This document shows positions 22,406 through 52,506 of a stretch of 64,000 bases of DNA, piece after piece; positions within the stretch are counted from its first letter, which is position 1; every line of letters begins with the position of its first letter. Location of the stretch: NCBI GenBank assembly GCA_030684815.1, contig JAUXXQ010000196.1:13930-77929 (forward strand), in the 5' to 3' direction. Both the position numbers and the translations under genes were made by a program. This stretch comes from Methylobacter sp. GTDB lineage: Bacteria; Pseudomonadota; Gammaproteobacteria; Methylococcales; Methylomonadaceae. The notes under the pieces were generated by a model. It did not search any database. It was not told the DNA's origin and was given only the letters and a program-made list of their open reading frames with translations.

Positions 22406-22514
22406 GGAGCCATTAGATTGTGTAGAATCGACATGTGTAGCAAGCCAAAAAAACAATTGAAACAGAAAGGGAAAAATATAACACAGGCACTATAATCATG
22501 CGGGTAGCTTTTAC

Positions 22515-22745
22515 CAAAAAAGTCCGTAAAGCCCCTTCCTTCAGGTGGGGGATGTAAGGATGCTCTTGATTTATTTTGCTTGTTCATCTAGTGTTCTCTC
22601 CGTTGGGTGCGCTGTTGCTGCGTATCTCCTGCCATCAGGCTCACACTGAGATGGCGTGAAGTAAGACGATTTTCAGAGTCGTCCCCTTCGGGCATGAAGG
22701 GCTGCACTAAGGAATCCCCTTGCTTTAGCTGGGGGAGGATGTCAA
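22515..22745 (+). mobile_element. Non-autonomous IS200/IS605 (IS608-like) mini-element, 231 bp, no transposase or TnpB ORF
   Basis: TTAC target at 22511-14; AAAG at 22528-31 before the hairpin CCCCTTCCTTCAGGTGGGG; right end GAAT-CCCCTTGCTTTAGCTGGGG-GAGGATG-TCAA. Confidence 0.88.
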
Positions 22746-22792
22746 AGCACTCAAAACGGTTAGGGTAAACGATAATCAGCGAGGAAAGTTAG

Positions 22793-23410
22793 ATGAATTT
22801 GGTTTTAAACCGGCATTACCGAAAAAGATTAATGTCAAAAGGTCTGATTTATTTGGGTGAAGAAGAGCTGGAAATCACCATTAAAGACCTTTCCTTAACC
22901 GGCGTACTGGCGGAATTGCAGTCCAAGCACATCAGCGCGGACGTCAAAGACATTTTTAACATGCTGTCGGTGTCAACGATGGTTGATATGTACCTTCCCG
23001 AGATGCGATTAGCTGGCGAGGCCGATGTGGTCAGGGTTGACATCTTCGATGGCCATATATTGATTGCCTTGAACTTCAGAAATGTGTCCTATGACGTCAA
23101 TAACCAGCTATACAAAAGAAAAGCCTATAGAAAAAACATGACTGCGCCGGGAAAAATCCTGTTGGATGGCGCCTATCATGAATTCAGCGCCATTAATGTT
23201 TCAGTCGACGGCTTAATGGTTAAGCTCGCCGAATCGGTAGCCGTCGAAGCGGGCGAAATAACCGTGTTCGAATTTGAGCGGCTGGGCTTGAAAGGCGAAA
23301 TAAAAGTGGTCTGGGTTGAGAATGCTGAAGATGGCGGCTTGTTGATCGGTTTAAAATACGTACACATGGAAAATACAGAAGTTAAAGGCATACCGCGTTT
23401 TGCGCTGTGA
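22793..23410 (+). CDS. Tandem PilZ-domain protein
   Basis: RHYRK...DLSLTG and RKAYRK...NVSVDG (RxxxR and D/NxSxxG twice). Confidence 0.85.
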   Translation: MNLVLNRHYRKRLMSKGLIYLGEEELEITIKDLSLTGVLAELQSKHISADVKDIFNMLSVSTMVDMYLPEMRLAGEADVVRVDIFDGHILIALNFRNVSYDVNNQLYKRKAYRKNMTAPGKILLDGAYHEFSAINVSVDGLMVKLAESVAVEAGEITVFEFERLGLKGEIKVVWVENAEDGGLLIGLKYVHMENTEVKGIPRFAL

Positions 23411-32494: not shown

Positions 32495-32554
32495 CAAAAA
32501 AGTCCGTAAAAACCCTTCCTTCAGGTGGGGGGATGTAAGGATGCTCTTGATTTA
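32495..32554 (+). mobile_element. Solo left-end fragment of the IS608-like element
   Basis: TTAC|caaaaaagtccgtaaa...ccttccttcaggtggggggatgtaaggatgctcttgattta, near-identical to 22515-22573; no right end follows. Confidence 0.8.
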
Positions 32555-52131: not shown

Positions 52132-52506
52132 CCATGAGTAGCGTAAAACCCCGCCGTTCAGGGCGGGGATGTAAGCGGCTCAGTTTCGTATTTCTCATCG
52201 TGTTAATCCCTTCCATTGTGTTAAAACCGACTCTTGTTACTATCAGAGGACGCTATCGGCTCTCTCAATGACGGCAACTTAAGTTTTAAAAGGCTTCAAA
52301 ATCACAACTCGCGAAAACCAAGCAAACAGTGTGAAGCCTAAATAACCGTTTTAAAAAGTAAAATAACCGTCGGGCAGACGGGGCTAGCCTGCGAAATGAG
52401 CGGTACAGTATGCCGTCAGCAGCAGAAACCAGTGGGCAGTAGCGATACAATCCCACTCCTGATTCACATCAGGAATCTCCATGCTTTAGCAGGGGGAGGA
52501 TGTCAA
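52132..52506 (+). mobile_element. Second non-autonomous IS608-like mini-element, 375 bp, with a tnpB-tail remnant
   Basis: TTAT at 52128-31; AAAA at 52145-48 before the hairpin CCCCGCC-gttcag-GGCGGGG; right end GAAT...GCTTTAGC...GGAGGATGTCAA; TnpB-tail-like peptide TVGQTGLACE. Confidence 0.85.

What the first reader, a model, noticed from the sequence alone, without database searches (positions are those of the whole stretch)
22515..22745. 231-bp ORF-less IS608-like element that may be a standalone TnpB omega-RNA cassette with its own promoter
Seen: TTAC|left end with AAAG 5' of the hairpin; right end with GAAT 5' of the hairpin and terminal TCAA; no protein ORF. An internal sigma70-like TTGATT-N17-TAGTGT (22566-22594) points at the right end, predicting a ~145-nt RNA plus the flank AGCACTCAAAACGG.... 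Established: IS608 uses TTAC/AAAG and TCAA/GAAT cleavage/guide pairs, and TnpB guide RNAs derive from the element right end plus flanking DNA. Inference: a minimal parasite that borrows TnpA and TnpB in trans yet keeps the RNA needed to cut its own empty site, in effect a natural RNA-guide module.
Basis: partly seen in the sequence, partly recalled or inferred. Interest (0 to 1): 0.8.

Follow-up and report, generated by a model that had tools for sequence, protein, structure and literature searches.

The report
Gene-less mobile element carrying guide RNA
This 231-bp gene-less mobile element in a Methylobacter genome carries its own promoter and a shortened copy of the guide-RNA scaffold used by a TnpB nuclease encoded elsewhere in the genome, which is a clear natural example of an already described kind of element.

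Summary
Window 22515-22745 is an ORF-less IS200/IS605 element (a PATE). It lies 3' of TTAC and ends in TCAA. It has subterminal hairpins with AAAG and GAAT guide tetranucleotides. The genome holds 7 full copies, and five sister Methylobacter species carry more. A sister species has the empty site.

The interior is not filler. Five helices are 98.8% paired across species, with 9 compensatory pairs. The promoter TTGATT-N16/17-TATAAT is conserved, though weak in this copy. Metatranscriptome contigs start just after that promoter and read through the right end into the flank.

A covariance model built only from tnpB-linked 3' regions of other taxa picks this scaffold as the best hit in the window. 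The shared parts are the junction, the base of stem S3, stem S4 with its GGGCAU loop, and the linker. The roughly 56-nt S3 interior is deleted, and the 5' part is different.

The cognate tnpB-only IS is multicopy here and co-occurs with the PATE. The cognate TnpA is absent from this genome. TnpB binding and cleavage are untested. Standalone omega-RNAs and omega-RNA-bearing PATEs are already published, so this is a new member of a known kind.

The parts
22511..22514 (+). TTAC target site, which is also the predicted TnpB TAM, immediately 5' of the element
   Evidence: TTTAC precedes all 7 full copies in this genome and nearly all copies in other species. The empty site in G009 reads GTTTTAC|AGCAC.
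22515..22745 (+). 231-bp ORF-less IS200/IS605 element (PATE, called 'family A' here)
   Evidence: Full-length copies at 94-100% identity with identical boundaries. Copies in five sister species. No conserved ORF.
22528..22551 (+). Left-end DNA guide AAAG (22528-22531) plus the left subterminal hairpin (22532-22551)
   Evidence: Read directly from the sequence and folded. Positions 1-69 of the element are 93-96% identical to the left end of the tnpB-only IS. Elements that insert at TTAT carry AAAA here instead.
22566..22594 (+). Internal sigma-70-type promoter, TTGATT-N17-TAGTGT, pointing at the right end
   Evidence: The -35 TTGATT is present in 13 of 15 aligned copies. The -10 is TATAAT in G012, G016 and G027 copies, and TATTGT or TAGTGT in this genome. 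The scanner does not call this copy. RNA contigs start just downstream of it in related copies.
22605..22627 (+). Helix S1 (GGGTGCGC / GCGTATCT), specific to the PATE
   Evidence: 8 pairs, 99% paired, 2 pairs with compensatory changes, several G-U pairs.
22630..22656 (+). Helix S2 (TGCCATC / GATGGCG), specific to the PATE
   Evidence: 7 pairs, 100% paired, 2 compensatory pairs.
22657..22683 (+). Junction TGAAGTAA plus helix S3 (GACGAT / GTCGTC, 7-nt loop). S3 corresponds to the base of the long-range helix GAGAAU/AUUCUC in tnpB-linked omega-RNA regions, with the ~56-nt interior deleted.
   Evidence: Covariation within the PATE. The covariance-model alignments to tnpB 3' ends place it in the same register in both directions. 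The same helix is supported in TnpB relatives.
22684..22701 (+). Helix S4 (CCCTTC-GGGCAT-GAAGGG), matching the 6-bp stem with GGRCAU loop of the TnpB family's omega-RNA region
   Evidence: In 29 tnpB-linked sequences all 6 pairs show compensatory changes and the loop is conserved. The PATE has the same loop, stem length and spacing.
22702..22745 (+). Linker CTGCACTAAGGAAT (GAAT guide at 22712-22715), right-end hairpin (22716-22735) and tail AGGATGTCAA (TCAA at 22742-22745)
   Evidence: Read directly from the sequence. The last 36 nt are 86% identical to the right end of the tnpB IS. The last 42 nt are 95-100% identical to the right ends of family B PATEs and of the IS605-type element. Hairpin pairs covary.
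22746..22761 (+). Flank AGCACTCAAAACGGTT, the predicted 16-nt guide if the RNA acts as an omega-RNA
   Evidence: Inferred from position. RNA contigs of related copies read through the right end into the flank. After excision this flank would sit next to TTAC, as in the G009 empty site.

Best explanation
The element is a non-autonomous IS200/IS605 transposon (a PATE). It inserted 3' of TTAC in the intergenic region between an SLT transglycosylase gene and a PilZ gene.

It descends from a tnpB-only IS ('family C'). It kept that IS's left end, including a -35 box. It gained a -10 box at the deletion junction. It also kept a shortened version of that IS's omega-RNA scaffold: the junction UGAAGUAAGA, the base of S3, S4 with its GGGCAU loop, the linker, the right-end hairpin and the tail. 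In front of these sit two new helices, S1 and S2.

Transcription from the internal promoter, or from upstream host transcription, gives an RNA of about 145 nt that runs on into the flanking DNA. That flank supplies a 16-nt guide.

The inferred mechanism is that TnpB proteins from the family C copies bind this RNA in trans. When a TnpA excises the PATE, the complex cuts the rejoined TTAC+AGCACTCAAAACGGTT site, and recombination with a sister copy restores the element.

What is shown: the anatomy, mobility, conserved structure, promoter conservation, transcription of related copies, homology to the tnpB-linked scaffold, and presence and co-occurrence of tnpB.

What is inferred: binding by TnpB, cleavage and homing.
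For: - PATE identity and mobility. Identical boundaries, a TTAC target, no target duplication, an empty site in G009, and insertion differences between species.
- Selected structure. Five helices are 98.8% paired across 15 copies from 5 species, with 9 pairs changed on both sides. No shuffle in 500 reached this, and slid controls gave 43-58% pairing. Many G-U pairs make the fold specific to the + strand.
- Promoter. Conserved and closer to consensus in other species.
- RNA. Contigs in five metatranscriptome runs start inside the PATE, after the promoter, and continue past the right end. There is no coverage of the left end or of 600 nt upstream.
- Homology to an omega-RNA. Model R1, built from the PATE, hits tnpB 3' ends in register at 13-15 bits. 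Model R2, built from 29 tnpB-linked regions with no PATE sequence, hits all 9 PATE copies tested at 19-27 bits. In an unfiltered scan of the whole 64-kb window, R2's top hit is this scaffold (20.3 bits, E=0.014). The next hit scores 11.5 bits.
- The tnpB-linked structure is itself well supported. It is 97.6% paired, and all 6 S4 pairs are compensatory.
- Cognate TnpB. The C35 copy is intact (364 aa) and at least 8 loci are present. PATE and TnpB-C co-occur in 6 of 6 genomes, against 1 of 35 genomes without the PATE.
- Precedent. Engineered deletion of ISDra2 stem 3b keeps activity (PMC10097598). Standalone omega-RNAs work in trans (PMC10691335, citing Altae-Tran 2021). PATEs often encode omega-RNAs (PMC10055086).
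Against: - Only the 3' ~80 nt aligns to the TnpB-linked scaffold. The strongly conserved 5' segment AGUCCGAAAGGUAGAGCAGG and the ~56-nt S3 interior are missing or replaced. In ISDra2 the 5' stem 1, pseudoknot and triple helix contact the protein (PMC10097598).
- The model scores are modest. With default filters neither model recovers the other family genome-wide.
- No cognate TnpA is present in this genome or in its source samples, so no excision is expected here now.
- This TnpB family has Gly at the RuvC-II Glu position. Nuclease activity for this clade has only been predicted (PMC10691335).
- The RNA evidence comes from assembled, unstranded metatranscriptome contigs of related copies at low depth, not from this copy.
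- The transcripts run at least 430 nt into the flank. That also fits a simple outward-facing promoter.
Confidence: 0.6

Rival explanations
1. The RNA is a transcribed relic. The PATE descends from a tnpB IS and still carries part of the omega-RNA, but the shortened scaffold no longer binds TnpB. The element persists only because TnpA copied it and because it is young.
For: The 5' conserved segment and the S3 interior of the TnpB-linked scaffold are missing. Model scores are low. Copies within this genome are 94-98% identical, so they are recent. One orthologous site in this genome has already collapsed to a 48-bp solo hairpin.
Against: Compensatory changes occur in all five helices between lineages that are about 25% diverged (G016 versus G000). 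These include the PATE-specific S1 and S2. The promoter is also conserved. Both point to selection on the RNA over a time span similar to the TnpB-C divergence of 76-78%.
Confidence: 0.2
2. The conserved promoter and structure serve something other than TnpB. Candidates are an outward-reading mobile promoter or small RNA that alters neighbouring gene expression, or a top-strand ssDNA fold that helps TnpA-mediated excision and integration.
For: RNA contigs continue at least 430 nt into downstream DNA. This copy sits in the 5' region of a PilZ gene, in the same orientation. The + strand is also the strand TnpA would act on, and G-T pairs can form in ssDNA.
Against: The downstream gene is co-oriented with the PATE in only about half of 17 copies. 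Only the end hairpins are known to be needed by IS608-type TnpA. S3 and S4 match, in register, helices that covary inside tnpB coding sequence of relatives across orders. That covariation is the expected signature of an omega-RNA.
Confidence: 0.15

Closest known systems
PATEs of IS200/IS605 elements that carry omega-RNAs (Geobacillus stearothermophilus ISGst family; Meers et al. 2023, PMC10055086)
   Same: An ORF-less element with the left and right ends of resident tnpB-bearing IS copies. It would be mobilised in trans. Its right-end-proximal RNA would have to be used in trans by a TnpB encoded elsewhere.
   Different: This one has a dedicated, conserved sigma-70 promoter. Its scaffold is naturally shortened: the S3 interior is deleted and there is a new 5' module. 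Cross-species covariation shows selection on the RNA. The partner TnpB belongs to a family with Gly at the RuvC-II Glu position. The host is a methanotroph, and this genome has no cognate TnpA.
Standalone omega-RNAs that act in trans with OMEGA effectors (Altae-Tran et al. 2021, as summarised in PMC10691335)
   Same: Mobilised guide-RNA loci that lack both effector and transposase, in genomes that also hold effector-bearing loci.
   Different: In-trans activity was shown experimentally for those loci. Here it is inferred. Those loci were found as near-copies of effector-linked omega-RNAs. This scaffold is diverged and shortened.
ISDra2 TnpB omega-RNA and its engineered Trim2 version (Nakagawa et al. 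2023, PMC10097598)
   Same: The scaffold ends at the transposon right end, with a UUUA-containing terminal hairpin followed by the guide. The tnpB 3' coding region overlaps the scaffold. An internal distal stem can be removed without loss of activity.
   Different: TnpB-C is only distantly related to ISDra2 TnpB (phmmer E=1.4e-20 over the C-terminal half). The TAM is TTAC rather than TTGAT. No pseudoknot partner could be identified in the PATE RNA. The deleted region is not known to be equivalent to stem 3b.
IS608 (Helicobacter pylori) end rules
   Same: TTAC target paired with AAAG 5' of the left hairpin. TCAA cleavage site paired with GAAT 5' of the right hairpin. No target duplication.
   Different: The resemblance is in the end rules only. 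The resident proteins are not close to IS608's. The autonomous relative in sister species has divergent tnpA and tnpB genes (IS605-type layout).

Membership tests
IS200/IS605 non-autonomous element (PATE) | Subterminal imperfect hairpins at both ends, no terminal inverted repeats, no ORF | tested here: met
   Hairpins at 22532-22551 and 22716-22735. Only chance ORFs are present.
IS200/IS605 non-autonomous element (PATE) | Insertion 3' of a specific tetranucleotide, without target-site duplication | tested here: met
   TTAC precedes all copies and the 3' flanks are unrelated. The empty site GTTTTAC|AGCAC is present in G009.
IS200/IS605 non-autonomous element (PATE) | Guide tetranucleotides 5' of the hairpins match the cleavage sites and change together with them | tested here: met
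   AAAG/TTAC and GAAT/TCAA in this element. Family B and the Thiofilum relatives have TTAT with AAAA.
IS200/IS605 non-autonomous element (PATE) | A Y1 TnpA that recognises these ends is available in trans | tested here: not met
   The cognate IS605-type TnpA is absent from the assembly and from the contigs of the four source-like runs. It is present in G009, G012, G021 and G027. The only TnpA here is IS200-type, 31% identical, with different hairpin stems. This speaks to current mobility, not to what the element is.
TnpB omega-RNA | Scaffold abuts the right-end boundary, with the guide supplied by flanking DNA | tested here: met
   The structured region ends at 22745. RNA contigs of related copies cross the boundary.
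TnpB omega-RNA | Sequence and structure homology to the scaffold encoded at the 3' end of a tnpB gene | tested here: inconclusive
   The 3' ~80 nt match in register in both directions. The 5' conserved segment and the S3 interior are absent. With default filters there is no genome-wide cross-hit.
TnpB omega-RNA | A compatible tnpB in the same genome | tested here: met
   Intact 364-aa TnpB at C35:48220-49314 plus at least 7 further loci. Co-occurrence across the genus.
TnpB omega-RNA | Transcribed in the sense orientation | tested here: inconclusive
   Metatranscriptome contigs cover the scaffold plus flank of related copies. They are unstranded, of low depth, and not from this copy.
TnpB omega-RNA | Bound by TnpB and directs TAM-dependent DNA cleavage | not testable with these tools
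   Requires biochemistry or an interference assay.
Rfam HgcC / sot RNAs (RNAs overlapping tnpB 3' ends) | Reaches the family's gathering score | tested here: not met
   HgcC scores 15.2 bits on the PATE and 22.6 bits on the tnpB IS, against a threshold of 50. Most of the score comes from the right-end hairpin.

The most novel reading that the evidence does not exclude
The PATE may be a second-order parasite that has evolved its own minimal omega-RNA. It would keep only the guide-proximal core recognised by TnpB-C and replace the coding-constrained 5' part with two new helices and a private promoter. Dispersed guide modules (at least 9 copies) would then match or outnumber the nuclease genes and compete with them for TnpB. 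If so, it would mark out a naturally selected minimal scaffold for a TnpB clade with a rearranged RuvC-II motif. It would also stand as a stage between transposon guides and dispersed, CRISPR-like guide sets.
Probability: 0.35. Interest if true: 0.6.

Novelty: new member of a known kind. Interest (0 to 1): 0.45.

Why it matters
This is a clean natural case in which the guide-RNA module of a TnpB transposon has separated from the nuclease gene, gained its own promoter and stayed under selection. That supports the view that TnpA, TnpB and omega-RNA are separable modules.

Comparing the natural deletion with the full tnpB-linked scaffold suggests which parts of this clade's omega-RNA can be dropped. 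That could guide design of compact guides for a little-studied clade with a rearranged RuvC-II motif.

It also matters for annotation. Short intergenic repeats of this type in methanotroph genomes are transcribed, structured RNAs, not inert repeats.

Tried and rejected
- Rfam. There were only sub-threshold hits to HgcC and sot0042, driven mostly by the right-end hairpin. I did not use them as evidence.
- Looking for a tnpB whose 3' end is a close copy of the PATE interior. BLAST in the own genome found none. Model R1 found only PATE copies in the own genome and the genus, and nothing in 400 genomes of the class.
- Family B as the source of the scaffold. R1 does not hit the IS605-type tnpA+tnpB element and R2 does not hit family B PATEs, so this was rejected.
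- Empty-site joints in DNA runs of the same or related populations. None was seen in assembled contigs. The empty site came from sister genomes instead.
- A pseudoknot between the 3' tail GGAUGUCAA and an upstream segment, as in ISDra2. The tail is nearly invariant, so there is no covariation signal, and no consistent partner was found by inspection of the alignments.
- The IS200-type TnpA on contig C91 as the mobilising enzyme. It is 31% identical to the cognate type and its hairpin stems differ (CCACCAGCTTTAGCTGGTGG), although the GCTTTAGC loop and the terminal TCAA are shared. This is left open.
- The element as a dedicated promoter for downstream genes. Orientation relative to neighbours is mixed.
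- Protein remnants of TnpB within the PATE. None was recognisable in any of the three + strand frames.

Full report
**Observation.** The window lies on contig C141 of a 235-contig genome bin assembled from groundwater metagenomes. Relatives place it in the genus Methylobacter.

- TTAC at 22511-22514.
- Left end CAAAAAAGTCCGTAAAG, followed by the hairpin CCCCTTCCTTCAGGTGGGGG.
- Right end AAGGAAT, followed by the hairpin CCCCTTGCTTTAGCTGGGGG and the tail AGGATGTCAA.
- TTGATT-N17-TAGTGT at 22566-22594.

The boundaries are real.
- The genome holds 7 full-length copies at 94-100% identity, plus truncated and rearranged ones.
- Every full copy is preceded by TTTAC, ends in TCAA, and has an unrelated 3' flank.
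- Copies occur in five other Methylobacter species at 74-97% identity, with the same flank pattern.
- The orthologous locus in sister genome G009 reads ...GTTTTAC|AGCACTTGAG... with nothing in between. The element therefore inserted precisely 3' of TTAC without a target duplication.

This copy sits between an SLT transglycosylase gene (minus strand) and a PilZ-domain gene (plus strand, ATG at 22793).

**The repeat landscape.** Three element families share these ends.
- Family A is the 231-bp PATE studied here.
- Family B is a PATE of about 400 bp. One copy is at window 52132-52506. It inserts at TTAT and carries AAAA instead of AAAG 5' of the left hairpin.
- Family C is a 1340-bp IS that carries only tnpB (364 aa; C35:47992-49331). 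Its left end is 93-96% identical to PATE positions 1-69. Its last 36 nt are 86% identical to the PATE's right end.

The target/guide change from TTAC/AAAG to TTAT/AAAA also appears among tnpB relatives in Thiofilum. It also appears in an autonomous IS605-type element (tnpA and tnpB divergent) in sister species. This is the IS608-type rule.

**The interior is a conserved structure.** I aligned 15 copies from five species. A five-helix model (S1-S4 plus the right-end hairpin) is 98.8% paired. Nine pairs changed on both sides, spread over all five helices. No shuffle in 500 reached the observed values. Sliding the partner strand gave 43-58% pairing.

Most of the double changes separate one diverged lineage (G016) from the rest. 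They therefore represent few evolutionary events, but they fall in many independent pairs. Numerous G-U pairs make the fold specific to the + strand.

The promoter is conserved. TTGATT is present in 13 of 15 copies. The -10 is a perfect TATAAT in G012, G016 and G027 copies, and TATTGT or TAGTGT in this genome. The window copy has the weakest version, and the scanner does not call it.

**Transcription.** No RNA run exists for this organism, but several metatranscriptomes hold words from the element. Laid on the window, the RNA contigs from four runs begin at the equivalents of 22614-22646. Three of them cross the right end into flanks of other copies. None joins the left end to the scaffold.

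I also laid the runs on the matching G021-type locus. There the contigs start at 1598, 1610 and 1620, against a predicted start near 1588. Those from two runs run at least 430 nt past the right end. The left end and the 600 nt upstream have no coverage.

This fits initiation at the internal promoter and read-through into the flank. The contigs are unstranded, low in depth, and not from this copy.

**Is it an omega-RNA?** A model of the PATE scaffold without the right-end hairpin (R1) finds only PATE copies in the own genome and the genus. It finds nothing in 400 genomes of the class. No tnpB therefore carries a close copy of the interior.

With filters off, R1 hits the 3' end of the family C tnpB, and of three relatives, in one fixed register (13-15 bits). 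In that register, these PATE segments line up with these tnpB-linked segments:

| PATE | tnpB 3' end |
|---|---|
| UGAAGUAAGA | UGGAAUAAGA |
| S3 | helix GAGAAU/AUUCUC, which encloses about 56 nt |
| S4 (CCCUUC-GGGCAU-GAAGGG) | CGAUUG-GGRCAU-CAAUCG |
| CUGCACUAAGGAAU | CUAGCGGUAGGAAU |

I then collected 80 loci encoding TnpB-C relatives at 53-96% identity. They come from Methylococcales, Thiothrix, Thiofilum, Psychromonas, Pseudomonas, Halomonas and others. Their 3' ends show the same architecture. The S4 stem varies freely while its loop stays GGRCAU. On 29 of these sequences the structure is 97.6% paired, and all six S4 pairs are compensatory.

A model built from these sequences alone (R2) hits all nine PATE copies tested at the same place and strand. 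Scores are 19-27 bits, best for the G016 copies, against a background of 9 bits or less. In an unfiltered scan of the entire window, its top hit is 22637-22715 at 20.3 bits (E=0.014). The next hit scores 11.5 bits.

The scores are modest, and with default filters neither model recovers the other family genome-wide. The evidence rests on four things together: the fixed register, the shared loop, the identical spacing to the right end, and the reciprocal hits. R2 does not hit family B PATEs, and R1 does not hit the 3' end of the IS605-type element.

I conclude that the 3' ~80 nt of the PATE RNA descends from the family C omega-RNA region. The S3 interior, which encodes the zinc finger and RuvC-III in the gene, has been deleted. 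The strongly conserved 5' segment AGUCCGAAAGGUAGAGCAGG has been replaced by the PATE-specific helices S1 and S2.

In ISDra2, removing the distal stem 3b keeps or improves activity, but the 5' stem 1, pseudoknot and triple helix contact the protein (PMC10097598). I could not find a pseudoknot partner in the PATE RNA.

**Partners.** TnpB-C is intact in the C35 copy and present at eight or more loci. Many of these sit at contig ends. It has the RuvC-I Asp and the DRDxN motif. The RuvC-II Glu is replaced by Gly across the whole family. This matches the 'rearranged' clades that Altae-Tran et al. predicted to remain active through an alternative Glu (PMC10691335). Activity is not established here.

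Among 41 Methylobacter genomes the PATE occurs in six. Close TnpB-C homologues occur in exactly those six plus one other. The G016 TnpB-C (76-78% identity) and the G016 PATE copies (74-76%) are diverged to a similar degree. That suggests a long shared history.

The cognate transposase is a different matter.
- TnpB-C relatives in other taxa often have a divergent Y1 tnpA upstream.
- Sister species carry an autonomous IS605-type element with that TnpA.
- This genome has only an IS200-type TnpA, 31% identical.
- The contigs of four runs that hold this genome cover only the PATE-like ends of the autonomous element.

The element is therefore probably immobile in this population now. The expansion relative to G009 (one PATE-A copy there, at least 9 here) implies recent activity.

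**Rivals.** The RNA could be a transcribed relic that no longer binds TnpB. Covariation in all helices and the conserved promoter argue for selection, but they do not prove TnpB use.

The RNA or promoter could instead act on neighbouring genes, or the fold could act as ssDNA. Neighbour orientation is mixed, and S3 and S4 match helices that covary inside tnpB coding sequence across orders. I therefore rate these rivals lower.

**Comparison and novelty.** Standalone omega-RNAs that work in trans, and PATEs that encode omega-RNAs, are already described (PMC10691335, PMC10055086). This is a well-documented new member of that kind. The points of interest are the dedicated promoter, the naturally shortened scaffold with a new 5' module, the evidence for selection, and the partner clade with a rearranged RuvC-II motif.

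Noticed in passing
window 52132-52506 (also C99:5502-5899 and about a dozen other copies): A second PATE family ('B', about 400 bp) inserts at TTAT and carries AAAA instead of AAAG 5' of the left hairpin. Its last 42 nt are nearly identical to this element's right end. Its parent appears to be an autonomous IS605-type element found in sister species (L181, L185) but absent here. That element has divergent tnpA and a 396-aa tnpB whose RuvC-III region reads NADLVGAIN.
   Followed up: partly
G000 C38:34813-34860, compared with locus L058:1499-1727 (G021): At the orthologous site, with the same flanks, G021 has a full 227-bp PATE. This genome has only a 48-bp hybrid hairpin: the left-end start, one hairpin and the right-end tail. 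That looks like a deletion between the two end hairpins that removed the RNA module.
   Followed up: partly
window 32495-32554: A left end of the same type, preceded by TTTAC but with GTAAAAACCC 5' of the hairpin. It diverges from the PATE after about 60 nt into unrelated sequence. Its right end was not located.
   Followed up: no
G000 C91:2610-3330 and C61:1-320: The only Y1 transposase gene in the assembly is IS200-type. On C91 it is flanked by an inverted duplicate of its own 3' end. Its hairpin CCACCAGCTTTAGCTGGTGG shares the GCTTTAGC loop with the PATE right end, and the C61 copy ends in TTCAA.
   Followed up: partly
G000 C127:14379-14989 and C107:12983-16425: Two PATE copies are disrupted. 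One has about 370 bp inserted within its left end. The other is split into two parts in opposite orientation about 3.2 kb apart.
   Followed up: no
loci L092-L171 (tnpB 3' regions): The segment AGTCCGAAAGGTAGAGCAGG inside tnpB is almost invariant at the nucleotide level, including third codon positions, across proteins only 53-96% identical. This points to an RNA-level constraint, possibly the 5' core of this clade's omega-RNA.
   Followed up: partly
window 22489-22497: CACTATAAT upstream of the insertion site is conserved in all five Methylobacter species compared. It may be the PilZ gene's own -10 box, so the PATE sits in that gene's 5' leader and could also be transcribed from the host promoter.
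   Followed up: no
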